This document shows, piece after piece, positions 21,384 through 40,255 of a stretch of DNA of 41,040 bases (positions are counted from its first letter, which is position 1; each line of letters begins with the position of its first letter). Source of the DNA: Moorena sp. SIO3H5 (lineage in GTDB: Bacteria; Cyanobacteriota; Cyanobacteriia; Cyanobacteriales; Coleofasciculaceae); assembly GCF_010692395.1 (NCBI RefSeq), contig NZ_JAAHHS010000023.1:721-41760 (forward strand), in the 5' to 3' direction. A program made the translations under genes and the position numbers. The notes below the pieces were generated by a model. It did no database searches. It was not told where the DNA came from and saw nothing but the letters and a program-made list of their open reading frames with translations.

Positions 21384-23702
21384 TTAGGTATTATTAAGGA
21401 TATCGTGCAAAATTTGGAGACTATTACGAAACTTTACAGTGTGAGGATGATCTGACCCTAACTTCTTTTCTGCAATCTCCAAAGCCTGGACATAGAGCGG
21501 TTCTGCCTGATGGTAAAGTCCCTGAGTATAGTAGAGTCGAGCCAGGTTGTGGAGACTGCTGGCCACATCGGGATGGTTGTGACCCAGCAGCTGCTTTGTC
21601 ATCTCCAAAGCTTGTTGATAGAGGGGTTCTGCCTGATAGTAGCGTCCCATTGACCAGTAGAGATTTGCCAGGTTGTTGAGACTGATGGCCACATCGGGAT
21701 GGTCTTGACCCAGCCGCTGCTTCAACAGCTCCAAAGCCTGTTGATAAAGGGGTTCGGCCTGGTGATAGCGCCCCATTGACCAGTAGAGTGCACCCAGGTT
21801 GTTGAGACTGGTGGCCACATGGGGATGGTGTTGACCCAGCCGCTGCTTTCTGATCTCCAAAGCCTGTTGATAAAGGGATTCGGTCTGGTCATAGCGCCCC
21901 ATTGACTTGTAGAGTGCACCCAGGTTGTTGAGACTGGTGGCCACACGGGGATGGTATTGACCCAGCCGCTGCTTTCTGATCTCCAAAGCCTGTTGAAAGA
22001 GGGGTTCGGCCTCATCATAGCGCCCCATTGACTGGTAGAGTAAACCCAGATTGTTGAGACTGGTAGCCACATCGGGATGGTTCTGACCCACCAGCTGCTT
22101 TCTGATCTCCAAAGCCTGTTGTAAGAGGGGTTCGGCCTCATCATAGTGCCCCATTGAATTGTAGAGTAAACCCAGATTGTTAAGACTGGTGGCCACATCG
22201 GGATGGTTCTGACCCAGCAGCTCCTTTCTGATCTCCAATGCCTTTTGAGAGAGGGGTTTGGCCTGGTCATAGCGCCCCATTAACCAGTAGAGTAAACCCA
22301 GGTTATTGAAACTTCGGGCTACATCGGTATGTTCCTCACCCAGGCGGCTTCTAGTTATCTCTAAACATTTCTCATACCAAGGTTCAGCCTGGTCATAGAT
22401 ACCTTGATCGTCATAGAATTTTCCTAAGACAGTTAAGAGGGATGGTAAATCTTCATCCCTGAGCCAGTTAGTTAGGACTGTGGCAGCTTCGGCTAAATGA
22501 GGGATGCTGAGATTAACTACTGCAATCTGATCTTGAGTTGGTGTCTCAGGAATTTCCTGGGCTACAGCCACCATTGCCTGACAAAAGCTTTGCTTGTAGC
22601 TATCGGCCTCTGGTAATTGATCGAGTTTGGTCTGGAAAAATTCTCGAATTAGTTGATGGACTTGATAGGTTTGTTTTTCGGTCAGTTTCAAGAGATTACG
22701 ATTGACCAGAAAGCGATCGCGTAATTCTTCTAATTCTTCTTGTTCTTCTTCCCATTCCTCCTCATCGTCCGTTTCGATAACACAAGACTCTACCAGTGAC
22801 CACTCAAAAGGAGCTTGAGCAAACAGACTCAGACGACATCCCAACTGCTGGGCTTCTGGAAAATCTTTCAAATCTTCCCAGGATAAGTCAAAGGCTGCTG
22901 CGACTCCCAACTGGGCTGTCACTTGCCCTTGTTCTTCTTGAGAAAGTAATGCCTTTGCTGCTAATTTCTTTTTCTCTAAACGTTTCTGAACTTTAGCAAT
23001 GGTTAAACTCGGATGTAGATCTAAATATCGTCCTACTAACTCCAAGCCCAAAGGTAAATAACCCAACCATTCACATAGGGCTTCTGCTTCGTTTAGTTCG
23101 TTATCAATGCGCTCTTTTCCAACAAGCGATCGCAATAATTCCAATGCTGCACCAGGTGCTGCTTTTGGCGAAAGTACATCCAAGTCAATTCGTTGGTACG
23201 AAGCTCCTGGACGCTGACGACTGGTAACCAGTACTTTGAAGCGGGATTGGGCTGGAGGCAAATAGGGTTCAATTTTATCTTTATAGTCCTTCCCGAAAGA
23301 AGGAACATCATCGAGCACAATCAATACTGTTCCTTCTGGCCAATTTCTCCAGCAGTGTTCTACCTGTTGTTCGTTTAACTTTAGTTTATCGGGAATGGTT
23401 AATCCTAATTTAGTACGGGCAAAACTGACAATCTGAGTCCCGAGATCTACACCGCGCACTGGAAACCAGCACAACCCACCAGGATACTTATCCTGATATC
23501 TAAGTGCATATTGTAGAGCTAACTCAGTTTTGCCCACACCACCCATTCCAGCAATGGCACAAATCACTAATCGATCCGTCTCTTGAAATTCCCGACGGAG
23601 CTGCTCAAGTTGATCTTCCCTACCAACAAAGTAGGGAGTGCCACGATTAATAATGTTACTGGGGGGATTTAACTTTGTCCGTTCCCGGTCGGACGACTCC
23701 AG
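21384..23702 (-). CDS. STAND NTPase: NB-ARC-type ATPase + ~8 TPR (42-aa, kinesin-light-chain-like) units. True N-terminus unresolved: no canonical start after an in-frame TAG
   Basis: P-loop GMGGVGKTELA, Walker B TVLIVLDDV, pre-P-loop FVGREDQLEQL. TPR units of pattern HPDVATSLNNLGLLY.SMGRYDEAEPL.QQALEIRKQ.LG, visible as 126-nt DNA repeats ~21440-22440. The frame is open from 23702 down, but the first ATG/GTG/TTG is GTG 23567, 7 codons before the P-loop. Confidence 0.85.
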   Translation of the reverse strand: MESSDRERTKLNPPSNIINRGTPYFVGREDQLEQLRREFQETDRLVICAIAGMGGVGKTELALQYALRYQDKYPGGLCWFPVRGVDLGTQIVSFARTKLGLTIPDKLKLNEQQVEHCWRNWPEGTVLIVLDDVPSFGKDYKDKIEPYLPPAQSRFKVLVTSRQRPGASYQRIDLDVLSPKAAPGAALELLRSLVGKERIDNELNEAEALCEWLGYLPLGLELVGRYLDLHPSLTIAKVQKRLEKKKLAAKALLSQEEQGQVTAQLGVAAAFDLSWEDLKDFPEAQQLGCRLSLFAQAPFEWSLVESCVIETDDEEEWEEEQEELEELRDRFLVNRNLLKLTEKQTYQVHQLIREFFQTKLDQLPEADSYKQSFCQAMVAVAQEIPETPTQDQIAVVNLSIPHLAEAATVLTNWLRDEDLPSLLTVLGKFYDDQGIYDQAEPWYEKCLEITRSRLGEEHTDVARSFNNLGLLYWLMGRYDQAKPLSQKALEIRKELLGQNHPDVATSLNNLGLLYNSMGHYDEAEPLLQQALEIRKQLVGQNHPDVATSLNNLGLLYQSMGRYDEAEPLFQQALEIRKQRLGQYHPRVATSLNNLGALYKSMGRYDQTESLYQQALEIRKQRLGQHHPHVATSLNNLGALYWSMGRYHQAEPLYQQALELLKQRLGQDHPDVAISLNNLANLYWSMGRYYQAEPLYQQALEMTKQLLGHNHPDVASSLHNLARLYYTQGLYHQAEPLYVQALEIAEKKLGSDHPHTVKFRNSLQILHDILNNT

Positions 23703-26281: not shown

Positions 26282-28144
26282 TCAGCTTTCCCCAACACAT
26301 CGATAAAGCTTATAACTATACTGACCAGCCCACTTAGAGCGCTTTTCTCGAAAACATTGCTGAGACTCTAGGTCAACTTTGGTACGGAAATTAACTAACC
26401 ATAAATCTAGTGGTCGTGGCAATTCATTTAATTGTTGTTGTAATTGTTGGACAGCATCCTCGTAACTGGAACTATTCCGGTCACGACCTACTAAGAAAAA
26501 TTGGGGAAAATCCCTGGAATTATCATTAGAACCATTAGCAACAGTCAGACCTTTCAATCCCCAAGCTAATCCCATCATGCGCCCGGTCTGTCCATGGTGT
26601 TTGTAGGTCGTTGCGATCGCAAGCGGTGCTTCACTTGCTTCCTTAAGAATAGACACTAGTAGATCCGGGCGCTCGTTTTGAAGATAACCAAGATTCGAGA
26701 CTGTCACTAATCCACCCAACAGCCCAATCAACCATACCGCTACCACTATCCTTTTGCCAAAGTAAGACTTATAGCTGTTTTCATCCCGATCAAGTACATA
26801 GGATTTTCTTCTACTTTCCTGTGTTCCCCTCCTGGGAGGGGTTAGGGGTGGGTTCCTGCTCCCTGCTCCCTGCTCCCTGTTCCCTGTTCCCTGTTCCCTG
26901 TTCCCTGCTTGTGCAACAAGTCTAATCTGATTCCAACAACCACCTAAGCTTGCTGCCACCAACAGGATCACTCCTGGAAAGTAGACGAAGTGAAAACGGG
27001 GGGCTGTGCTTAAATCTATACCGAAACCCCAGGTCAAGACTAAACATAACCCAATTGCTGCTAAGACATACTCCCTTAGGATTGTGATAACGGAACGGTT
27101 ATGGTGATCGAGTTGCTGTAATTTCAGTCCATAGCGGAGATGGGATACTATCCAAACCACTAGGATTAAGGTAACTATACCGGAAACAATAATAATTCCT
27201 AGGGATAGGTCATAGAAAGAAGAAGGTAGCAGTAACACCATACTGAACAGCCATAGTAAAAATCGTCCTATGGGTTCAATCCATCGTGCGATCGCATTTT
27301 GGCTATAAATCCATTGGGTAGGGGGACTATCATGAATCGTTTGTAAGGCCGGTATCCACACTAAACATCCCGCTAAGGAACCCATAGCTACTCCATAAAT
27401 TCCCCACCAGTAAGGTTTGATCAAAGCTAGTCGGTCTTGCTGAGTTTCTCGCCAAGCTTGTCCCAATAATGCGATCGCTTCCGCACCTAAAGTCAGGATA
27501 AAGAAATAATGGGTAGCAATGCCCAGACTATTCACTCCCACCCACCCTAACCCTAGCCAACTGGGCAACCGTTCACCACAGTCGATTAACTCTACCGCTT
27601 TCACCAAGCAACCGAGAGATGCTATCACTAGCACAATAGCCAGAGTATAATGACGAGCCTGTTGAGCTAGGAAAATCCCGAAAGGGGAAACAGCCATCAT
27701 TGCTGCTGCTATGTGACCTACCAATAGTGAGCGAAAGGCCAGCCGACCTAGGCAAAAGATAGCAGGAATCGAGATTACTCCCAATAAAGCAGAAAGCGAT
27801 CGCACTGCCCAAATCGAAACTATACCATCCTCTAATGGGAATAGTTTTAGCCACAGATGGGTCAGAGCAAAATAAACTGGGGGATGGGTACTTTCCGTTA
27901 ATAAATAATGAATAACATTACTAATGCCAGCATCAGGAGACGGTTGTAGTGGGCTTAATAGGGTGTCTACTCCCATAAACTGATTCAGAGGTAACGAGTA
28001 AAAACTGTTACCCAAGCTAAATACTGTTGTCGCACATTCATCAGTCCAAGGAGGTAAAACCCCTAAACCAGCAAAGCGCAGCAAAGTCCCAATCGTAATC
28101 CACAGCAGCAATAATAAAACAGTTTGGGATTTTTTTAAGTACAT
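26282..28144 (-). CDS. GT39/ArnT-PMT-like membrane glycosyltransferase (GT-C fold)
   Basis: 620 aa; ~11 TM helices; N-terminal LRFAGLGVLPPWTDECAT motif typical of family 39; C-terminal soluble domain. Contains an in-frame repeat insertion (next feature). Confidence 0.8.
   Translation of the reverse strand: MYLKKSQTVLLLLLWITIGTLLRFAGLGVLPPWTDECATTVFSLGNSFYSLPLNQFMGVDTLLSPLQPSPDAGISNVIHYLLTESTHPPVYFALTHLWLKLFPLEDGIVSIWAVRSLSALLGVISIPAIFCLGRLAFRSLLVGHIAAAMMAVSPFGIFLAQQARHYTLAIVLVIASLGCLVKAVELIDCGERLPSWLGLGWVGVNSLGIATHYFFILTLGAEAIALLGQAWRETQQDRLALIKPYWWGIYGVAMGSLAGCLVWIPALQTIHDSPPTQWIYSQNAIARWIEPIGRFLLWLFSMVLLLPSSFYDLSLGIIIVSGIVTLILVVWIVSHLRYGLKLQQLDHHNRSVITILREYVLAAIGLCLVLTWGFGIDLSTAPRFHFVYFPGVILLVAASLGGCWNQIRLVAQAGNREQGTGNREQGAGSRNPPLTPPRRGTQESRRKSYVLDRDENSYKSYFGKRIVVAVWLIGLLGGLVTVSNLGYLQNERPDLLVSILKEASEAPLAIATTYKHHGQTGRMMGLAWGLKGLTVANGSNDNSRDFPQFFLVGRDRNSSSYEDAVQQLQQQLNELPRPLDLWLVNFRTKVDLESQQCFREKRSKWAGQYSYKLYRCVGES
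26825..26903. repeat. Palindrome CCCCTCC-TG-GGAGGGG plus seven heptamers (3x TGCTCCC, 4x TGTTCCC) lying inside the GT39 ORF
   Basis: Translated in frame as AGNREQGTGNREQGAGSRNPPLTPPRRGT; verified codon by codon. Confidence 0.95.
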
Positions 28145-32547: not shown

Positions 32548-34572
32548 ATGGAATCTCTTCTGAATGTTCGATTTTCCATTAACCCTTTCCCAAGGGTTAG
32601 GTTTCAGCGTTCCTTGGGATTGGTTTTGCTAGGTGTACTTACCCTACTGCTCACCCTATTACCATGCTCTACCTTAGCACAGGAATCTTTGGCAAATGGC
32701 ACTAAGAAAGCTCCTGTGGTAGTGGATGGTATTGAATTATTTCAAGTGGGCAACGCTGGCAACTTTAGCGCTACTGAGCGAGCCAATCTGATCAATCAGC
32801 GCTTAGCAAGGGAGGTGAAATCCCCACAAAAACCTAAGTATGTGGACATTGAATATGTCGGGCAAAACGAGGGGATTCTTCGTACCAAGTTTACCGAGCG
32901 CATTCTGGTCACCATTACCAAGGCCGATCAAATTCCTGATACTGATCCTCTTGAGCAAGCCCAGAAATGGGAGAAGCTGATTGAAAGGGCAATCCGGCAG
33001 GGCAAACGACAGCGGATGCCAGATTATAGTCGTCAGGCAGTAAGGTTTACAGCCATAGTGCAGGTGTTGTTAATGCTGTTGTACTTGCTGTTACGCTTCT
33101 TCAGGCAATTTGCCTTGCGGAAACTGACCTCTTGGCTAGGGAATCCGGCTTCGCCTTTTTTCCCTTGGCATGACCCAGCCAAATTATTTCTGGGGGCAGC
33201 CCTGTTAGGTTTACAGCTTATCCTGTGGACTACAGCGATCTTAACCATTAGTGACCTATTTCCCCAAGTTCGCAGTTGGCGTTATGACCTGTTAAACTTC
33301 CTCAAGTCTCCTGTCATTGGTGCAGGAGAAAGCAAGTATTCTGCTATCCAAGTGCTGCTGTTGGTGGTATTAACCGTTGTGCTATGGTTTGTGGTTAGTG
33401 CCCTCACCAGGCTATTGAGGCGTTACGTCTTGGGCAAAAGTGGCGCTGATTCAGGGGTGCAAGAGGTTATTGCTATCCTGACCCAGTATGTCCTGACATT
33501 TTTGGGCATGATTATCATACTGCAAAGTTCTGGGTTGGATTTGAGTTCCCTAACCATTTTTGCCAGTGTCTTAGGGGTAGGAATTGGCTTCGGTGTGCAA
33601 AATATTGCTAACAACTTTATCAGTGGCTTAATTATCACCCTAGAGCGACCGATTCAACTGGGGGATTTTATTAAAGTCAACGATTTGGTGGGAACTGTGC
33701 AGCGCATTGGTTCCCGCAGTACAGAAATTTGCACCTTGGATAAAGTGACAATAATTGTGCCCAATGCCCGGTTTTTAGAAACTGAGGTGATTAACTGGAG
33801 TCACGGTAACCCGATTTCCCGGCTCAAGATTCCTGTAGGAGTGGCTTACGGATCTGATGTGGAGCAGGTCAAGAAGGCACTGTTGGCAGCTGCCAAGAGT
33901 CACCCGGAAGTGTTACTGAGGCCCTATCCCCAAGTTTGGTTTCAGGAATTTGGTGAGAGTTCCCTCAACTTTGAGCTGTTGGTCTGGACTGGAGACCCCA
34001 AGCGGCAGCCTAAAATCAAAAGTGACTTGAACTACCGGATTGAGAAAAGTCTGCGTCGCCATGATATCCATATACCATTTCCTCAACGGGACCTCCATGT
34101 GCGATCGCCTCAGTTAGAGAAATTGCTCACGGCTTGGCTGGGGGAGCGTCAGCCAAAACCGCCAGAAAACCAACTCTATATTCCTAATGGATATCAGTCT
34201 GAGCGGCCCACCCAAGATGCTTTAGTTTCAGGTTTCCTAGAGCCGATGGATGAAGTAGATCTAGATTCTTACCCTACGGCTCCTTTGCAAGAGGATATGG
34301 TAACACTAGACATTGAAACCTTGGTCGAGGAAATGCGTCAACCAGGAGGATTGGATATTAAAGACCGTCGCTATCGTCTCAATAGCTATGGATGCTGTTT
34401 TGTTGGCTCAGAAGCCGTAGATTGGTTGGTAAAACGGTGTAATTCTACTCGGGAAGACGCAGTAACTGTTGGACAGATACTAATTAATAGAGGTATTATT
34501 CATCATGTCGCAGATGATCATCCTTTCCGGGATGATTATTTGTTTTACCGTTTTTATTTAGATGAGAATTAA
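32548..34572 (+). CDS. MscS-family mechanosensitive channel with C-terminal DEP domain
   Basis: 674 aa. MscS core NNFISGLIITLERPIQLGDFIKVNDLVGTVQRIGSRSTEICTLDKVTIIVPNARF. Last ~85 aa (nt ~34309-34569) GGLDIKDRRYRLNSYGCCFVGSEAVDWLVKRCNSTREDAVTVGQILINRGIIHHVADDHPFRDDYLFYRF align by eye to the DEP consensus. Confidence 0.85.
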   Translation: MESLLNVRFSINPFPRVRFQRSLGLVLLGVLTLLLTLLPCSTLAQESLANGTKKAPVVVDGIELFQVGNAGNFSATERANLINQRLAREVKSPQKPKYVDIEYVGQNEGILRTKFTERILVTITKADQIPDTDPLEQAQKWEKLIERAIRQGKRQRMPDYSRQAVRFTAIVQVLLMLLYLLLRFFRQFALRKLTSWLGNPASPFFPWHDPAKLFLGAALLGLQLILWTTAILTISDLFPQVRSWRYDLLNFLKSPVIGAGESKYSAIQVLLLVVLTVVLWFVVSALTRLLRRYVLGKSGADSGVQEVIAILTQYVLTFLGMIIILQSSGLDLSSLTIFASVLGVGIGFGVQNIANNFISGLIITLERPIQLGDFIKVNDLVGTVQRIGSRSTEICTLDKVTIIVPNARFLETEVINWSHGNPISRLKIPVGVAYGSDVEQVKKALLAAAKSHPEVLLRPYPQVWFQEFGESSLNFELLVWTGDPKRQPKIKSDLNYRIEKSLRRHDIHIPFPQRDLHVRSPQLEKLLTAWLGERQPKPPENQLYIPNGYQSERPTQDALVSGFLEPMDEVDLDSYPTAPLQEDMVTLDIETLVEEMRQPGGLDIKDRRYRLNSYGCCFVGSEAVDWLVKRCNSTREDAVTVGQILINRGIIHHVADDHPFRDDYLFYRFYLDEN

Positions 34573-35263: not shown

Positions 35264-35395
35264 GAATTGCTCTAATCCTCCTGTTGATTAAACGTTGCTG
35301 ACAAGGGTAACTATATCAATTTTTGTAGGAGTTGTGAATAGGGCACTATAGGGCAATTTTCAGCAAGGTTTGAGGGACATTGTTTATAGTTTTAA

Positions 35396-35444
35396 GGCAA
35401 TAGGCAATAGGCAATAGGCAATAGGCAATAGGCAATAGGCAATA
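35396..35444. repeat. Heptamer array (GGCAATA)x7
   Basis: Counted directly. Confidence 0.95.
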
Positions 35445-35594
35445 GCGATGCTTCAGAAAGTAGTATACTAAGATTACGTAATTTTTTTGGGAAGCGATTG
35501 ACCTTGGCCTAAAGGCCACGCTAGGCGAATGGTCACGCTACGCGATGCTCGGTAGGAGCCGCTACGGGAACGCAAAAAAATAGACTTTACTGAG
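35440..35594 (+). repeat. Dispersed GC-rich element, copy A (direct repeat partner of 39565-39748)
   Basis: CAATAGCGATGCTTCAG...GGCCACGCTAGGCGAATGGTCACGCTACGCGATGCTCGGTAGGAGCCGCTACGGGAACGC aligns with copy B at roughly 85 percent identity by eye, with one 9-nt indel. Confidence 0.8.
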
Positions 35595-35627: not shown

Positions 35628-35781
35628 GGGCATCCTGCCCGCGCGGAAATAAGGAGGAAACTGGCAAGATGCCAGTTCCACGCAAGATGCCCGCGCGAAA
35701 ATAAGCATGAAACTGGCAAGATGCCAGTTCCACGCAAGATGCCAGTTCCACGCAAGATGCCAGTTCCAGGGCAAGATGCCC
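35628..35781. repeat. Array of small hairpins / 18-nt tandem units (CAGTTCCACGCAAGATGC)
   Basis: Repeated TGGCA-AGA-TGCCA and GGGCA-NNN-TGCCC stem-loops. The larger ~55-nt unit is duplicated. Confidence 0.85.
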
Positions 35782-35940: not shown

Positions 35941-38900
35941 TTACTCTTCAAACTCCTTAATTGTTTTCATGTATTTTTTTGATGCTCCTTCAGATAATTG
36001 AAGTCTTTGTTCTTTTTTAATGCGAAAATATTCATTATAAACTTCCTGACTTTCTTTCTGCTCAAGTAAATAATCATAAGGACCTTTACCAGACAAAAGT
36101 TTAACTAATATAGGTGAGATTTCAATAGTGACGAATAAGGCAGTTATTAGCCAATTAATATTACGAATATTCGGATCGTCTTTAGATAACTCTTCTAAAG
36201 CAACAAGACGAGCTAAGAAGCCATAGGATTTTTTGTCAATTTTTTCTTGATTCAGTTGTTCTAAGTTACTCTCTGGTGACTGCAAAATAAGATTACGTTC
36301 TTTAAGCTTATCTATTTTATCCTCTTTCTCCTTAACTTTATTATCTAATTCAATAAATTTTTGTTTGATCTCATCTGCATAGTTTCGTTTGTCTTGATAA
36401 ACAATTCCTTTTCCAAGTTGGCCTGTTCCCTGTGTACCTTCTGCTTCTGCATTAGCCGCATATTCTGCATTTTGCCATTCATTTTTGTACTTATTTTTTT
36501 CTATATTTAAGGCTTGAATTTCTTGCTCTAGGTCTTTTATTGGTTCGGTAAGTTCTTCTTTGGATAGTTCATTTTTATCTTGTTCTATTTTCTGGTTAAT
36601 TTCTTTTTCAAAGAGCCTCAACTCAAGGGGTTTAGCAACCACAAAGCTTAACAATAATGCTATTAACAATCGAAGACTTGTTGCTGCAATAAATGGCAAA
36701 TTTAAATTTAAGTCCGTTTCTTTTCTCTTAGAGCTTAAAATTAAAAAACGATCTAAGTTAAAAACTATAAAACTCCAAAACGTTCCTCCTAGACAAGAAG
36801 CTGCTACAGAACCAAATACTGTAAAAAGAGCATAACCACCGGAAAAAATAGCCGTTGTTGATGTTAGCAGAACCGTGGTACCAATTGCTGTATATTTATA
36901 TCGTTCTGTCAAACATTCTTTTTGTGCCAAAATGTGATGATCTGCACCAGCACACCATAGCAAAAATTTTTCTAGTGAATTTAAATTATCGTTAATTGTT
37001 GGAGTCTGTATTAGGTGTTGAAGTTCAGCTGGTAAGCCAATTTCGTTTATAAAAGTACCAACCCCTTCAACACCATAAGTATTCAGAGCACTTTTGATAT
37101 ATTCTGTAGCTCTTTCCTGAATTTGCTCCCGTTGTTGTAAGAAGTCTAAAGCATTATAGTCTTGAGCGGAATTACGGAAGTAATTACCAACCATCGATGC
37201 TAAGACCCTATTCACAAGGTTTTTAATAGAGCTATATTTAACCGCACCCTTAGACAAGGGGCTAAGAACTCCTCCTTCTTCCTCAACTTGCTGAAAACTA
37301 TGAGCATTTGGTGAACCCACACGAGAGATCATTTTAGGAGAATTGTTGGGAGCAATATTAATAACCTGGGTGACTTCAAGATTCAAAATAAAGCCATCTT
37401 TTGAGCGAAGCTTTAATGTGTTCAAATTAGAATCATAGTTGGTTGCTGGTTTATCTCTATTCGTCCAGTCCAAAGTTATTTCATGGGCAGGAACTATTAC
37501 TATATTTTTAACTCTTGTATTGATAGGATGTGTTCCCGCTTCTATTGGTATGTTTTGAATCCCTTTATACCCAATTGGAACGATATTAAACTGAGAACCA
37601 TAAGTATTTTGCTCTTGATTGGCGTGGCTATTCTTACCAACATTGGAGATTAAAACTCCAACTGTTCCAGTTTTAATATTAGTTAAAGGAACTTGTTCAA
37701 CTTCCACAAACCAAGGATTTAAACTCCAAAAACCTTCTTCGATAAATTCTTCTTGTAAACCTCGATAGCCACTTTTGTCAATAAACTCCTGTGGCTCCTG
37801 AAACTTATTATGTCCCTCAATAACTGGTCCTGCAATCTCCCCTCTTGGTAAGGGCTTACCATCAAAAGTAGTAACAATACCAATTTTACCTGATTCAACT
37901 CTGTAAACTTTTAATTGTTCTGGTTTCAGTCCATATTGCTTGGCATTGTCAGTAGTAACTACTGTAAATATTTCAGTGTTTATTCTATAGGAACCTTCAG
38001 TAAGAATTGTGCGCTGTTTACCTTGTTGACCACCGTTGTTGACAAAGGCTTCAGCATTCTGAAAATTATCGCAATCTACAGCTTTACCTAGTATTTGTCC
38101 TGGTGGTAGTTCAGCACCATCTTGAGCAATAACTAGCCCTATCTCCCCTGAGCGAATATTAATTACTGGGACATTATTAACTTTAAACAACTCTGTATTA
38201 ATGTAGTGAGTTCCAGGAGGAATAATTCCTAATTGGTTCCCTTGTTGACCGCCGTTTTTGATAAATGCTTCAGCGTCCTGAAAAGTGTCACATTCAACAA
38301 CTTTACCAAAGTTCTGACCAAGTGGAAGTGGCTGACCATCCCTTGCTTCCACTAACCCTACTTCATTAACTCCAATTTTGATAAGTTCAACTCTCTTAAT
38401 TTTGAAAAGTTCTGTATTAATTGCGTATTTGCCAGTAGTAATAATCTTTAACTGTTGTCCCCTATATCCCCCATTATCAATAAATGCTTGAGCGTCTTCA
38501 AAATTGTTGCATTCAACAGCATCACCAAAGGTTTTTCCAATCGGAAGTGGCTTGCCATCTTTCGCTTCTACTAAGCCAATTTCATAGTCATTAATATGAA
38601 TAATTTTCCTGATTTCAACAGAAAAAAGTTGAGTATTAATCCGATAAATACCATTTCTTAAAATGCCTAACTGCCTACCCCGTTGACCACCATTTTTGAT
38701 AAAAGCACGACCATCTTGAAAGTCATCACATTCTTCGATAACTTTCCCAAAAATTTTACCTGTGGCAAGAGAAGCACCATCGTTGGCGGTTACTAATCCA
38801 ATTTCATCTTTATCAATATGTATAGCCATTTGTTTAACAACTTTATAGCTCAAAGGAGAGTGGAAATGTCTTCCAGGACCAAGAGTATCAACCTGCCAAC

Positions 38901-39021
38901 CCATTTCTCCATTAAGAGCGATTTGACGATTAGATGGTAAAGGACTACCAAACTTTTTATAGACAATTCCAACCTCATCTTGAGAGATTACATAAACGCC
39001 AGGTGCCCGATCAATTGCCAT
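35941..39021 (-). CDS. 1026-aa fusion protein: seven tandem beta-rich modules + SPFH/band-7-like core + DUF4407-like membrane and coiled-coil domain
   Basis: ATG 39021 with GGAG 8 nt upstream. Modules each open with E[IV]G[IL]V at residues 16, 73, 147, 220, 293, 379, 453. SPFH-like segment KDGFILNLEVTQVINI...YIKSALNTYGVEGVGTFINEIGLP. DUF4407-like LLWCAGADHHIL...YKYTAIG...FWSFIVFNLDRFLI plus a K/E coiled coil at residues ~800-930. Low G+C (12-23 per 60-nt line in five sampled lines). Confidence 0.85.
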   Translation of the reverse strand: MAIDRAPGVYVISQDEVGIVYKKFGSPLPSNRQIALNGEMGWQVDTLGPGRHFHSPLSYKVVKQMAIHIDKDEIGLVTANDGASLATGKIFGKVIEECDDFQDGRAFIKNGGQRGRQLGILRNGIYRINTQLFSVEIRKIIHINDYEIGLVEAKDGKPLPIGKTFGDAVECNNFEDAQAFIDNGGYRGQQLKIITTGKYAINTELFKIKRVELIKIGVNEVGLVEARDGQPLPLGQNFGKVVECDTFQDAEAFIKNGGQQGNQLGIIPPGTHYINTELFKVNNVPVINIRSGEIGLVIAQDGAELPPGQILGKAVDCDNFQNAEAFVNNGGQQGKQRTILTEGSYRINTEIFTVVTTDNAKQYGLKPEQLKVYRVESGKIGIVTTFDGKPLPRGEIAGPVIEGHNKFQEPQEFIDKSGYRGLQEEFIEEGFWSLNPWFVEVEQVPLTNIKTGTVGVLISNVGKNSHANQEQNTYGSQFNIVPIGYKGIQNIPIEAGTHPINTRVKNIVIVPAHEITLDWTNRDKPATNYDSNLNTLKLRSKDGFILNLEVTQVINIAPNNSPKMISRVGSPNAHSFQQVEEEGGVLSPLSKGAVKYSSIKNLVNRVLASMVGNYFRNSAQDYNALDFLQQREQIQERATEYIKSALNTYGVEGVGTFINEIGLPAELQHLIQTPTINDNLNSLEKFLLWCAGADHHILAQKECLTERYKYTAIGTTVLLTSTTAIFSGGYALFTVFGSVAASCLGGTFWSFIVFNLDRFLILSSKRKETDLNLNLPFIAATSLRLLIALLLSFVVAKPLELRLFEKEINQKIEQDKNELSKEELTEPIKDLEQEIQALNIEKNKYKNEWQNAEYAANAEAEGTQGTGQLGKGIVYQDKRNYADEIKQKFIELDNKVKEKEDKIDKLKERNLILQSPESNLEQLNQEKIDKKSYGFLARLVALEELSKDDPNIRNINWLITALFVTIEISPILVKLLSGKGPYDYLLEQKESQEVYNEYFRIKKEQRLQLSEGASKKYMKTIKEFEE

Positions 39022-39175
39022 AAGAAAAACTCCAATTAGATTAACTAGTTAATAATCAAAATCATACTATTTCGCTACCTTAATTCTTATTATTTTAACG
39101 TGAGTTTGACGAACTGGACAAAGGTGAAAGAGGGAGCATGTCACTTATGCAGCAACATTAGTACTAAATTTAGAG

Positions 39176-39259
39176 AATGGGGAATGGGGAATGGGGAATG
39201 GGGAATGGGGAATGGGGAATGGGGAATGGGGAATGGGGAATGGGGAATGGGTAATGGGT
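39176..39259. repeat. Heptamer array (AATGGGG)x10 + 2 variants
   Basis: Counted directly. Confidence 0.95.
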
Positions 39260-39329
39260 AATAGGTATAGCAGTCGCCAGGGCAGTTAGGACATGACAAA
39301 AGTCTCAAACCTAAGTAAGCGCAAGAGTT

Positions 39330-39364
39330 TGACTTCTGACTTCTGACTTCTGACTTCTGACTTC
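39330..39364. repeat. Heptamer array (TGACTTC)x5
   Basis: Counted directly. Confidence 0.95.
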
Positions 39365-39564
39365 TGCTGTAATAGGGGGAGCATCTCACAATAGCCGAGT
39401 ATTTTTACTTTTTCTATAGCCCTCTCATGGGTAATTGCTTGCTAATCATGGTAAATAGTTGATCTGTTTTGCAACTAATACTTGCTCATATCTCGCATTT
39501 TTGTTGTTTTGTCAAGTAGTTCATGTGTTCGCCAAATTTGACCTGCTCCCGATCCATCCGATGA

Positions 39565-39748
39565 CAATAGCGATGTTTCAATAAGTAGTATATAAGTTAC
39601 GGAATTCTGTTGGGACGCGATTGACCTGGGCCTTTAGGCCACGCTACGGGAATGGTCACGCTACGCTCCGGAAGCGATGCTCGGTACGAGCCGCTACGCG
39701 AACGCATTCTGGGGCACTTCCGGTACATGGAAAAACAGACTTGAGCAG
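39565..39748 (+). repeat. Dispersed GC-rich element, copy B (direct repeat partner of 35440-35594)
   Basis: CAATAGCGATGTTTCAA...GGCCACGCTACGGGAATGGTCACGCTACGCTCCGGAAGCGATGCTCGGTACGAGCCGCTACGCGAACGC. Confidence 0.8.
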
Positions 39749-39904: not shown

Positions 39905-40036
39905 AAATAGGTTAGTTTTCAGTATAAGTTATAACATACTTTTGTAACATTTACTGATATAGGGCTGTCATATCCTGCATGTTTGGCTCTACTACCTATA
40001 CGACATTGAGTTTGAACAAAAATCTAGGAATTTTAC

Positions 40037-40255
40037 ATGAGGTTTTACATGAGGTTTTACATGAGGTTTATGAGGTTTTACATGAGTTTTATGAGGTTTT
40101 ACATGAGGTTTATGAGGTTTTACATGAGGTTTATGAGGTTTTAGATGAGGTTTTACATGAGGTTTGACATGAGTTTTATGAGGTTTTACATGAGTTTTAT
40201 GAGGTTTTAGATGAGGTTTGACATGAGGTTTTACATGAGGTTTTACATGAGGTTT
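40037..40255. repeat. Minisatellite: 20 tandem units (13 x 12-mer ATGAGGTTTTAC-type, 7 x 9-mer ATGAGGTTT-type)
   Basis: Units parsed one by one; total 219 nt. All unit lengths are multiples of 3. Confidence 0.95.

What the first reader, a model, noticed from the sequence alone, without database searches (positions are those of the whole stretch)
35941..39021. Giant single-gene fusion: repeat-expanded SPFH-like scaffold joined to a DUF4407-like membrane/coiled-coil module
Seen: a 1026-aa ORF with a good RBS. Residues 16-520 are seven tandem modules that open with E[IV]G[IL]V, with periods of 57-86 aa. The central four share the pattern EIGLV.A.DG.PLP.GQ.FGK.VECD.FQDA.AFI.NGGQ.G.QL.II..G.Y.INTELFKV. 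Residues ~520-675 resemble an SPFH/band-7 core. Residues ~683-1000 resemble DUF4407 as I remember it: W-C-A-G-A-D, K-Y..I-G, hydrophobic helices including FNLDRFLI, a long K/E-rich coiled coil and a terminal hydrophobic helix. There is no N-terminal TM segment. Established: SPFH proteins normally carry their own N-terminal anchor and organise membrane microdomains or partner proteases, while DUF4407 is uncharacterised. Inference: here DUF4407 would supply the membrane anchor for an unusually large, module-amplified SPFH array. I know of no description of this architecture. Its low G+C and repeat-bracketed context fit an acquired accessory gene, with a role in membrane integrity or conflict as speculation.
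Basis: partly seen in the sequence, partly recalled or inferred. Interest (0 to 1): 0.7.

Follow-up and report, generated by a model that had tools for sequence, protein, structure and literature searches.

The report
Vault-like SPFH scaffold fused to DUF4407
This 1026-residue cyanobacterial protein is a natural fusion of two proteins that other cyanobacteria encode as neighbouring genes: a scaffold whose predicted shape closely resembles the eukaryotic major vault protein, and an uncharacterised four-helix membrane protein; the fusion shows that the two work together.

Summary
ORF 35941-39021 (-) encodes 1026 aa with seven tandem modules (residues 16-520). It also has a Band_7/SPFH core (Pfam E 4.9e-22), a full-length DUF4407 (E 3.3e-65), and no N-terminal TM segment.

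New points:
1. Both halves are separate, adjacent genes in Microcystis, Nostoc, Nostochopsis, Waterburya and others. Only Moorena has them fused, and it is the only fusion among 1.84 billion representative proteins.
3. Module number ranges from 2 to 15 in relatives. Expanded forms (five or more modules) are almost always preceded by a GUN4-domain gene, in most loci fused to a caspase, CHAT, trypsin, kinase or EAD1 domain. Forms with 5-7 modules are followed by DUF4407.
4. The Moorena fusion lost the scaffold's cap-like coiled coil, the DUF4407 C-terminal extension and the adjacent GUN4 gene.

Best reading: a membrane-tethered, vault-like oligomeric scaffold with DUF4407 as its membrane partner, derived from a conflict- or cell-death-type module. 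The function is inferred, not shown.

The parts
35941..39021 (-). Complete gene, 1026 codons plus stop: vault-like SPFH scaffold fused to DUF4407
   Evidence: ORF list. Intact orthologues of 1022-1026 aa in four other Moorena assemblies with dN/dS 0.36-0.63.
39030..39033 (-). GGAG Shine-Dalgarno-like motif, 8 nt before the ATG
   Evidence: Upstream sequence read directly.
37462..38976 (-). Seven tandem beta-rich modules (residues 16-520), predicted to be MVP-repeat-like
36973..37461 (-). SPFH/band-7 core (residues 521-683), the 'shoulder' equivalent
36952..36996 (-). Fusion junction (residues 676-690: ...LPAELQHLIQTPT|INDNLNSLEKF...)
   Evidence: Stand-alone DUF4407 proteins begin MKEQLNxLEKFLLWSAGAD, aligned to residue ~684. 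Unfused SPFH homologues continue from the IDLPDELEE motif into a long coiled coil. The junction is conserved in five Moorena genes.
35944..36972 (-). DUF4407 module (residues 684-1026)
   Evidence: Pfam PF14362 E 3.3e-65. AF2 model with pLDDT 77, all-helical.
36613..36921 (-). Predicted transmembrane helices 1-3 of DUF4407 (residues 701-803), holding the invariant SGGYA, NLDR and R/K positions
   Evidence: Hydropathy; helices H26-61, H64-88 and H100-128 of the model; invariant columns of alignment A2.
36280..36609 (-). Long antiparallel helical hairpin (residues 805-914) with a Gly-rich tip loop AEGTQGTGQLGKG
36091..36174 (-). Predicted transmembrane helix 4 (residues 950-977) with invariant E and P (IEISP)
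35440..35574 (.). Downstream copy of a ~135-nt dispersed element that flanks the gene
   Evidence: Direct repeat families D7-D9. blastn found only two full copies in the 41-kb window.
39565..39706 (.). Upstream copy of the same element (83% identity over the whole element by blastn; 87-94% in the ungapped segments)
   Evidence: Copies at equivalent positions are variably present in other Moorena loci.
35657..35735 (-). Two terminator-like stem-loops inside a 52-nt tandem repeat, 200-280 nt downstream of the stop codon
   Evidence: This is a consensus match only; the number found is no higher than in shuffled sequence.

Best explanation
The gene encodes a Moorena-specific fusion of two proteins that are encoded by adjacent genes in other cyanobacteria.

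Part 1 (residues 1-683) is a scaffold. It has seven beta-rich modules predicted to stack as an extended array like the repeat domains of the major vault protein. An SPFH/band-7 domain follows, in the position of the vault 'shoulder'.

Part 2 (residues 684-1026) is DUF4407. It has four predicted transmembrane helices with conserved polar residues in the membrane, and a ~110-residue helical hairpin between helices 3 and 4.

An internal deletion of roughly 1 kb joined the end of the SPFH domain to the first residues of DUF4407. That deletion removed the scaffold's flotillin/MVP-like coiled-coil tail. The Moorena protein also lacks the ~90-residue C-terminal extension that stand-alone DUF4407 proteins carry. 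Loss of both is what one expects if those two segments were the non-covalent docking surfaces of the partners (inference).

Mechanism, inferred from the behaviour of solved SPFH and MVP assemblies: the protein oligomerises side by side through its SPFH domain and repeat array into a ring or barrel on the cytoplasmic face of a membrane. It is held there only by a ring of DUF4407 membrane domains, whose hairpins project to the far side.

In relatives, this scaffold is part of a module with a GUN4-domain protein carrying a caspase, CHAT, trypsin, kinase, EAD1 or TRADD-like domain. The ancestral role is therefore most likely a scaffold or sequestration platform of a stress, conflict or cell-death pathway, with DUF4407 as the membrane sensor or effector. 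The Moorena version is a streamlined form with no adjacent GUN4 gene.
For: Shown:
- Both Pfam domains pass their cutoffs.
- Split pair: an SPFH-repeat gene is followed by DUF4407 at 17-395 bp in L001-L004, L007, L013, L014, L017, L019 and L029.
- The junction maps to the DUF4407 start.
- Both halves have their nearest relatives in the same operons. For example, P0019 and P0127 share contig L007, and P0022 and P0124 share a 7232-bp Waterburya contig.
- The fusion occurs only in the Moorena cluster among the best 150 of 3937 hits in 1.84 billion representatives.
- It is present and intact in M. producens 3L, M. bouillonii PNG, SIO3I8 and SIOASIH, with omega 0.36-0.63.
- Unfused homologues share a tail motif with the MVP cap-helix end (hhalign probability 92.9%).
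- Module number ranges from 2 to 15 in relatives.
- A GUN4 gene lies upstream of 15 of 16 forms with 5-7 modules and 4 of 5 forms with 8 or more modules, but only 4 of 66 forms with 4 or fewer.
- Conflict-type companions are present: EAD1, TRADD-like_N, CHAT, Peptidase_C14, Trypsin with Trypco1, and Pepco.
- Cytoplasmic N- and C-termini for DUF4407 fit the SPFH fusion here and a C-terminal Ser/Thr kinase fusion (P0381).
Against: - No oligomer was modelled or observed. Ring or barrel formation is extrapolated from other SPFH and MVP structures.
- The repeats and SPFH core show no significant sequence similarity to MVP (Pfam Vault families absent; hhalign probability 0.1-0.2%; PDB profile search). 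Likeness may therefore reflect parallel amplification of the SPFH N-terminal beta sub-domain rather than common descent.
- The fusion lacks the coiled coil that builds the cap in all solved SPFH and MVP cages.
- In N-terminally anchored relatives the membrane end is the opposite end of the array, so the geometry is unsettled.
- No GUN4 gene lies in the 41-kb window or beside any Moorena copy.
- There are no PADLOC or NCBIfam hits.
- The Moorena neighbours are ordinary chromosomal genes.
- Omega of 0.4-0.6 indicates weak constraint.
- The DUF4407 fold search gave only generic helical hairpins. Its topology is inferred from hydropathy, the positive-inside rule and two fusions.
Confidence: 0.6

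Rival explanations
1. Ordinary flotillin-type membrane-microdomain scaffold. The protein organises or stabilises plasma or thylakoid membrane patches as a housekeeping function. The repeats act only as a spacer and DUF4407 only as an anchor. There is no link to conflict or cell death.
For: - SPFH membership.
- The 3-module base form is common in Nostocales and Chloroflexota, without GUN4 or DUF4407 neighbours.
- Moorena neighbours are chromosomal genes: MscS-DEP, FHA, aminotransferase IV, DnaK, LigA.
- No PADLOC hit.
- JGI names relatives 'YqiK'.
Against: - Expanded forms are almost always next to a GUN4 gene, in most loci fused to a caspase, CHAT, trypsin, kinase or EAD1 domain.
- Some expanded relatives sit on elements with integrase, PIN, ParA and a telomere resolvase.
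- Variants are fused to VWA or a STAND NTPase.
- Distribution is patchy, G+C is low and omega is 0.4-0.6.
Confidence: 0.25
2. DUF4407 is the effector. It is a membrane-permeabilising or ion-conducting protein, kept inactive or switched on by clustering on the SPFH scaffold, as in abortive-infection systems with transmembrane effectors. The fusion hard-wires the regulator to the effector.
For: - Invariant polar and charged residues lie inside the predicted TM helices: NLDR, R784, K797, E967.
- Conflict-type gene company in relatives.
- One non-cyanobacterial DUF4407 lies about 4 kb from a SIR2-STAND gene.
Against: - DUF4407 is absent from PADLOC.
- Other DUF4407 contexts show nothing defence-like.
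- Constitutive fusion of a toxin to its scaffold, without the GUN4 partner, would be risky unless another control exists.
Confidence: 0.2
3. Decaying relic. A deletion fused two genes of a system that Moorena no longer uses. The product is non-functional or on its way to loss.
For: - Loss of the cap coiled coil, of the DUF4407 C-terminal extension and of the adjacent GUN4 gene.
- Relaxed omega, up to 0.9 for the SPFH part in one pair.
- Flanking dispersed repeats.
Against: - Five intact 1022-1026-codon reading frames in separate Moorena assemblies, with no stops or frameshifts, and omega below 1 in every comparison.
- Every residue that is invariant across alignment A2 is, by definition, kept in the fusion.
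- The junction is conserved.
- The AF2 models are confident.
Confidence: 0.1

Closest known systems
Major vault protein (MVP), the shell protein of eukaryotic vaults
   Same: - Same order of parts: an N-terminal chain of small beta-sandwich repeat domains (9 in MVP within residues 1-519; 7 here within 16-520), then an SPFH-like shoulder.
- Unfused relatives continue with a long cap-helix-like coiled coil of similar total length (849 aa in Microcystis against 861-893 aa for MVP).
- MVP chains and the R1-R7 fragment are the best or only non-SPFH structural matches.
- A tail motif of unfused relatives aligns to the MVP cap-helix end.
   Different: - No significant sequence similarity in the repeats or shoulder.
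- Modules are 73 aa with an inserted short helix.
- Module number ranges from 2 to 15 among relatives.
- Many relatives have N-terminal TM anchors.
- This protein has a membrane domain where MVP has its cap helix.
- Bona fide MVP homologues (>50% identity to eukaryotic MVP) exist separately in Moorena (bioRxiv 10.1101/872010; PMC3762200) and are a different protein.
SPFH/band-7 cage formers: flotillin/YqiK, HflK/C, prohibitin, stomatin, erlin, QmcA
   Same: - Pfam Band_7 member.
- Membrane association.
- Relatives have the coiled-coil tail used for cage formation.
   Different: - Six extra modules precede the SPFH region.
- No N-terminal anchor in this protein.
- The coiled-coil tail is replaced by DUF4407.
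DUF4407 (PF14362), uncharacterised membrane proteins
   Same: Full-length, high-scoring match. It has the same four hydrophobic helices, hairpin and conserved motifs as about 400-aa stand-alone members.
   Different: It is covalently joined to an SPFH scaffold and lacks the ~90-aa C-terminal extension of its closest stand-alone relatives. No function has been published: only three incidental mentions were found in the searchable literature.
Conflict systems of multicellular bacteria described by Kaur, Burroughs, Iyer and Aravind 2020 (PMC7159879): VMAP ternary systems with EAD, caspase/trypsin-Trypco, GUN4 and Band7-like domains
   Same: Relatives of the scaffold sit next to genes with EAD1, TRADD-like_N, CHAT, caspase, Trypsin with Trypco1, and GUN4. 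Some relatives are fused to vWA. That paper lists Band7-like domains as superstructure-forming parts of vWA proteins, and GUN4 as a cyanobacterial effector-position domain.
   Different: The Moorena locus has no vWA, MoxR, peptidase or GUN4 gene. Text searches of that paper found no mention of the repeat array, its MVP likeness or DUF4407.

Membership tests
SPFH / Band 7 (PF01145) | Profile match above the curated threshold | tested here: met
   79.3 bits against a cutoff of 23.6, residues 466-676.
SPFH / Band 7 (PF01145) | Alpha/beta SPFH fold | tested here: met
SPFH / Band 7 (PF01145) | N-terminal membrane anchor (TM helix or hairpin) | tested here: not met
   No hydrophobic segment before residue 735. 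About half of the relatives do have one.
SPFH / Band 7 (PF01145) | C-terminal coiled coil that builds the cage wall and cap | tested here: not met
   The sequence switches to DUF4407 at about residue 684. Unfused relatives keep a 170-340-aa coiled-coil tail.
SPFH / Band 7 (PF01145) | Assembly into a membrane-bound ring or cage | not testable with these tools
   No multimer prediction or experiment was available.
DUF4407 (PF14362) | Full-length profile match above threshold | tested here: met
   220.7 bits against a cutoff of 31.3, profile positions 5-296 of 297.
DUF4407 (PF14362) | Hydrophobic helices flanking a long coiled-coil hairpin, and conserved motifs (W..GAD, ERYKY, SGGYA, NLDR, IEISP) | tested here: met
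Major vault protein | Sequence match to the Vault repeat and MVP shoulder families (PF01505, PF17794-6, PF11978) | tested here: not met
   No such Pfam hit at E <= 1. hhalign of repeats against MVP repeats gave probability 0.1%, and SPFH against shoulder gave 0.2%. The profile search of PDB hit MVP only through coiled coil, at E about 0.1.
Major vault protein | Chain of small beta repeat domains followed by an SPFH-like shoulder (three-dimensional architecture) | tested here: met
Major vault protein | Cap-helix coiled coil and cap ring | tested here: not met
   Absent from this protein. Unfused relatives have it, with hhalign probability 92.9% to MVP residues 727-812.
Major vault protein | Soluble closed 78-mer particle made of two half-shells | not testable with these tools
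   The presence of four TM helices argues against a free soluble particle (inference).
VMAP / vWA-MoxR ternary conflict systems (Kaur et al. 2020) | vWA protein with MoxR ATPase and VMAP partner in the locus | tested here: not met
   There is no vWA domain in this protein. The ten largest window ORFs scanned show no vWA or MoxR-family hit. Neither family appears among the precomputed Pfam hits for the genes of the SIOASIH locus. The remaining smaller window ORFs were not scanned. Some relatives are vWA fusions.
Known anti-phage defence systems (PADLOC-DB 2.0) | Match to any defence-system protein model | tested here: not met
   0 families at E <= 1.

The most novel reading that the evidence does not exclude
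The family builds membrane-attached 'half-vaults': barrels whose height is set by the number of MVP-like modules (2-15). The GUN4 domain shared by the upstream caspase, CHAT, trypsin and kinase proteins acts as a cargo-docking domain that loads these dangerous enzymes onto or into the barrel, as PARP4 docks onto MVP repeats. DUF4407, with its hairpin reaching across the membrane, senses envelope or thylakoid damage or opens a pore. This would be a previously unrecognised bacterial cell-death or defence compartment. It would also be an independent, still-evolving (or ancestral) route from SPFH cages to vault architecture.
Probability: 0.2. Interest if true: 0.9.

Novelty: new variant of a known kind. 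Interest (0 to 1): 0.7.

Why it matters
**DUF4407.** This family has no known function. The fusion, together with the conserved gene pair, gives it its first firm functional partner: an SPFH scaffold. It also gives a testable topology.

**Origin of vaults.** How vaults arose from SPFH proteins is an open question. A 2026 paper still describes prokaryotic MVP homologues as known in only a few bacteria plus ten Asgard archaea (PMC12962969). Here is a large cyanobacterial family, with relatives in Chloroflexota, in which MVP-like repeats have visibly been amplified on an SPFH protein. Copy number is variable, and some host lineages are experimentally tractable.

**Link to cell-death components.** The tight association of the expanded forms with GUN4-tagged caspases, proteases and kinases connects a cage-forming scaffold to bacterial cell-death-type machinery. 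It suggests a new role for GUN4 domains beyond porphyrin handling.

Tried and rejected
- **No hits.** NCBIfam and PADLOC gave nothing useful. A phmmer search of the whole protein against PDB sequences gave nothing. PHROGs matched only the SPFH part, to 'lipoprotein' phrog_200.
- **Sub-threshold Pfam labels are noise.** CshA_repeat, ATP-synt_ab_Xtn, DUF1192, and Cas6/TseH on the relative P0118 have zero significant stretches. They arise from summing weak matches over the repeats. An adhesin or Cas reading was rejected. There is also no signal peptide.
- **Sequence homology of the modules to MVP repeats.** This was tested with a profile search of PDB and with hhalign against a vertebrate MVP alignment. 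Only the tail of unfused relatives matched. The MVP alignment is shallow (Neff 1.7), so the negative result is weak.
- **P0004 (749 aa).** It first looked like a 3-module fusion variant. BLASTP shows it is a 5'-truncated copy starting at query residue 278.
- **GUN4 partner.** I looked for a gene or remnant in the window and in four Moorena loci and found none.
- **Non-cyanobacterial DUF4407 neighbourhoods.** No SPFH gene and no consistent theme. Cluster names added nothing beyond Saprospiraceae.
- **Promoter and terminator scans** were no better than shuffled sequence. No tRNA gene in the window marks an integration site.
Full report
**1. The observation**

The ORF at 35941-39021 (minus strand) is real: ATG start, 1026 codons, with GGAG 8 nt upstream.

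Seven modules open at residues 16, 73, 147, 220, 293, 379 and 453. Modules 2-5 are 47-58% identical to one another. Modules 1, 6 and 7 are 18-38% identical to the rest. The DNA shows the corresponding 219-nt period.

Pfam gives Band_7 (E 4.9e-22, residues 466-676) and a full-length DUF4407 (E 3.3e-65, residues 702-989). Both are far above the curated cutoffs.

Hydrophobic helices occur only in the DUF4407 part. The gene is 35.5% G+C in a 42.9% window.

**2. It is a fusion of two neighbouring genes**

A database search with the whole protein found full-length matches only in Moorea/Moorena (88-94% identity). The N-terminal 65% (modules plus SPFH) matched thousands of cyanobacterial proteins with different C-termini.

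A search with the C-terminal 364 residues (663-1026, spanning the junction) found stand-alone DUF4407 proteins of 400-460 aa. Several of these lie on contigs of the same length as the SPFH hits.

Fetching the contigs showed the two genes side by side on the same strand, 17-395 bp apart. This holds in Microcystis, Nostochopsis, Nostoc, Roholtiella, Cuspidothrix, Anabaena and metagenomic Pleurocapsales-like contigs.

The first residues of the stand-alone DUF4407 proteins (MKEQLNxLEKFLLWSAGAD) align to residue ~684 of the fusion. The preceding residues (INEIGLPAELQ) match the IDLPDELEE motif. In unfused scaffolds, a 170-340-residue coiled-coil tail begins at that motif.

The fusion therefore arose by a deletion that removed that tail and the intergenic spacer. 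It also lacks the ~90-residue C-terminal extension of its closest DUF4407 relatives.

A search of 1.84 billion cluster representatives with residues 521-1026 gave 3937 hits. Among the best 150, only the Moorena cluster matched across both halves.

The fusion is intact in M. producens 3L, M. bouillonii PNG, SIO3I8 and SIOASIH. The junction is conserved and dN/dS is 0.36-0.63. P0004, which looked like a short variant, is merely 5'-truncated.

**3. What the modules are**

An AlphaFold2 model of residues 1-700, built from 49 homologues, is confident: mean pLDDT 86.3, and about 90 across the array.

Foldseek against the PDB ranks major vault protein chains first, at E 6.6e-13 with alignments of ~790 columns. 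It also finds the crystal structures of the MVP R1-R7 repeat fragment, which contains no shoulder domain, at E 5e-8 and TM-score 0.57-0.59 on the target.

The protein is thus predicted to have the vault order of parts: a chain of small beta domains, then an SPFH 'shoulder'. Unfused relatives add a cap-helix-like coiled coil. The end of that coiled coil aligns to MVP residues 727-812 with hhalign probability 92.9%.

At sequence level the repeats and shoulder are not detectably related to MVP. The protein is also distinct from the bona fide MVP homologue already reported in Moorea/Lyngbya (bioRxiv 10.1101/872010; PMC3762200). I therefore say it looks like MVP, not that it is an MVP.

Module 1 and module 7 resemble the ordinary N-terminal beta region of SPFH domains. 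The simplest origin is amplification of that sub-domain (inference).

**4. The wider family**

Counts below come from 120 database homologues and the 89 loci held at that point: nine fetched by protein identity (L001-L009) and 80 from the GTDB genome scan (L010-L089).

| Form | Typical size | GUN4 gene upstream | DUF4407 downstream |
|---|---|---|---|
| 4 or fewer modules | 600-760 aa; common in Nostocales and Chloroflexota | 4 of 66 | none of its own (the one case counted, L002's 507-aa ORF, shares the DUF4407 of the adjacent 7-module gene) |
| 5-7 modules, unfused | about 770-1010 aa | 15 of 16 | 11 of 16 |
| 8 or more modules | 1200-1790 aa; most carry a C-terminal vWA domain | 4 of 5 | none |
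| Moorena fusion | 1022-1026 aa | 0 of 4 | fused |

Module number ranges from 2 to 15 overall, with seven the commonest among the 120 closest database homologues and three among the genome-scan loci.

Of the five 5-7-module forms without a detected DUF4407, four run out of contig within 1 kb of the gene end. The fifth (L018) has an FHA-like gene downstream instead.

One variant is fused to a STAND NTPase.

In all ten loci examined with Pfam, the gene upstream of the scaffold carries a GUN4 domain. Seven of those ten GUN4 proteins also carry an N-terminal EAD1, Peptidase_C14, Trypsin_2, Pkinase, or CHAT plus TRADD-like_N domain; the other three show only GUN4. Earlier look-ups show CHAT-GUN4, Pkinase-GUN4, Peptidase_C14-GUN4 or GUN4 alone.

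The closest unfused relative of the Moorena scaffold (P0007, 75% identity) follows a Trypco1 plus Trypsin-GUN4 pair. It lies on an element with a telomere resolvase, ParA, PIN and an integrase.

These companions are the vocabulary of the conflict systems of multicellular bacteria described by Kaur et al. 2020. That paper mentions GUN4 and 'Band7-like' superstructure-forming domains. Text searches of it found no mention of this repeat array, its vault likeness or DUF4407.

The searchable literature holds three incidental mentions of DUF4407, and no paper linking GUN4 domains with band-7 or flotillin.

**5. DUF4407**

The model (pLDDT 77) is all-helical:
- three hydrophobic helices at residues ~701-803;
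- a ~110-residue antiparallel hairpin with a conserved Gly-rich tip (AEGTxGTGxxGKG);
- a fourth hydrophobic helix at ~950-977;
- a terminal helix.

Invariant polar residues lie within or at the ends of the membrane helices: NLDR, R784, K797 and E967 in IEISP.

With the SPFH part cytoplasmic, and a Ser/Thr kinase fused to the C-terminus of another DUF4407 (P0381), both termini should be cytoplasmic. The hairpin should then lie on the far side of the membrane (inference).

**6. How it most likely works**

*Shown:* the two parts are partners; the scaffold is SPFH plus MVP-like repeats; DUF4407 is the only membrane-spanning element.

*Inferred:*
- Like every solved SPFH protein and MVP, the scaffold oligomerises laterally into a ring or barrel.
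- In Moorena this barrel is tethered through a ring of DUF4407 domains at the shoulder end.
- The missing tail and the missing DUF4407 extension were the docking surfaces that covalent linkage made dispensable.
- The ancestral module served a stress, conflict or cell-death pathway together with GUN4-tagged enzymes.

*Unsettled points:*
- the geometry, because N-terminally anchored relatives attach by the opposite end;
- whether a cage can close without the coiled coil;
- what, if anything, replaces the GUN4 partner in Moorena.

Rivals are an ordinary microdomain scaffold, DUF4407 as a pore-type effector, and a decaying relic. Each is listed with its evidence in the rival explanations.

**7. 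Context in the window**

The gene sits in a chromosomal region with DnaK, LigA, MscS channels, an NB-ARC-TPR protein, an FHA protein and a Ser/Thr kinase. The downstream flank is syntenic with Moorea sp. SIOASIH.

It is flanked by heptamer tandem arrays and by two direct copies of a ~135-nt dispersed element. That element occurs variably at the same places in other Moorena genomes. No tRNA or mobility gene is adjacent.

Low G+C and the flanking element are compatible with an old acquisition but do not prove it.

**8. Verdict**

The added value is threefold:
- the fusion is a Rosetta stone for a conserved scaffold-DUF4407 pair;
- the scaffold is predicted to be vault-like;
- the expanded scaffold family is genetically tied to GUN4-effector proteins.

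This is a new variant of known kinds (SPFH and MVP-type scaffolds). Its function is unproven.

Noticed in passing
window 35440-35574 and 39565-39706: A ~135-nt element (83% identity over its length; 87-94% in the ungapped segments) is present as two direct copies bracketing the gene. It contains a GGCC...GGCC palindrome. These are the only two full copies in the 41-kb window. Single copies lie at equivalent positions in other Moorena loci. It is possibly a MITE-like dispersed repeat.
   Followed up: partly
window 35395-35445, 39175-39262, 39330-39366, 40031-40255: Short tandem repeat arrays in the intergenic regions around the gene: heptamers AGGCAAT, GAATGGG and TGACTTC, and a 12/21-nt array with about 20 copies of the 12-nt unit. 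They create spurious repeat-peptide ORFs on both strands.
   Followed up: no
window 35636-35780: A 52-nt tandem duplication, overlapped by an 18-nt repeat, forms two strong stem-loops followed by T-rich tails on the minus strand. They lie 200-280 nt downstream of the gene's stop codon and may be its terminator.
   Followed up: no
window 32548-34572 (+): A 674-aa MscS-type mechanosensitive channel has a C-terminal DEP domain (Pfam E 1e-22). This is an unusual bacterial combination and is conserved in Moorea sp. SIOASIH.
   Followed up: no
window 21384-23567 (-): A 727-aa NB-ARC plus TPR (STAND-type) protein lies about 12 kb from the gene.
   Followed up: no
window 26282-28144 (-): A 620-aa ORF has no Pfam match at E <= 1e-5.
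   Followed up: no
L002 6417-7940 (Microcystis, GCA_000312265.1): An extra 507-aa ORF with four scaffold-type modules is inserted between the GUN4 gene and the 849-aa scaffold gene. It is absent from two otherwise identical Microcystis loci. It may be a partial duplication of the module array.
   Followed up: no
L090 and L091 (metagenomic contigs carrying P0007): The closest unfused relative of the Moorena scaffold (75% identity) follows Trypco1 and Trypsin-GUN4 genes. It has no DUF4407 downstream. It lies near a ResT/TelK telomere resolvase, ParA, PIN, Uma2 and an integrase, which suggests a linear plasmid or prophage-like element.
   Followed up: partly
alignment A1 columns 798-872 (tails of unfused homologues) against human MVP 727-812: hhalign probability is 92.9% (E 3.6e-7) between the motif F..x..LSPElYxKIE at the end of the scaffold coiled coil and the MVP cap-helix end / cap-ring start (KKFKQMTEAIGPSTIRDLAV). 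Coiled-coil composition may inflate the score.
   Followed up: partly
P0381 (685 aa) and P0434 (1155 aa), from the representative search: Other DUF4407 fusions exist: one to a C-terminal Ser/Thr protein kinase, and one to a class A penicillin-binding protein (transglycosylase plus transpeptidase). Both are singletons from read-archive assemblies, so gene-calling artefacts are not excluded.
   Followed up: partly
L009 12285-17332 (Microcystis aeruginosa G13-07): The 1405-aa scaffold-vWA fusion is followed by two small membrane-protein-like genes, a vWA protein, a PP2C phosphatase and a DUF4278-kinase-GUN4 protein. The vWA-PP2C-kinase set resembles, from my own recollection of earlier work (not checked here), a 'TerY-P triad'. 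A Pepco gene and a caspase-GUN4 gene lie upstream.
   Followed up: no
L018 9447-10856 and L024 9172-10539: In two Nostocales loci, the scaffold gene (6 and 4 modules) is followed not by DUF4407 but by a ~460-aa protein whose N-terminus looks FHA-like. The window and L007 also have FHA and kinase genes within a few kb. This may indicate a wider link to Ser/Thr phospho-signalling.
   Followed up: no
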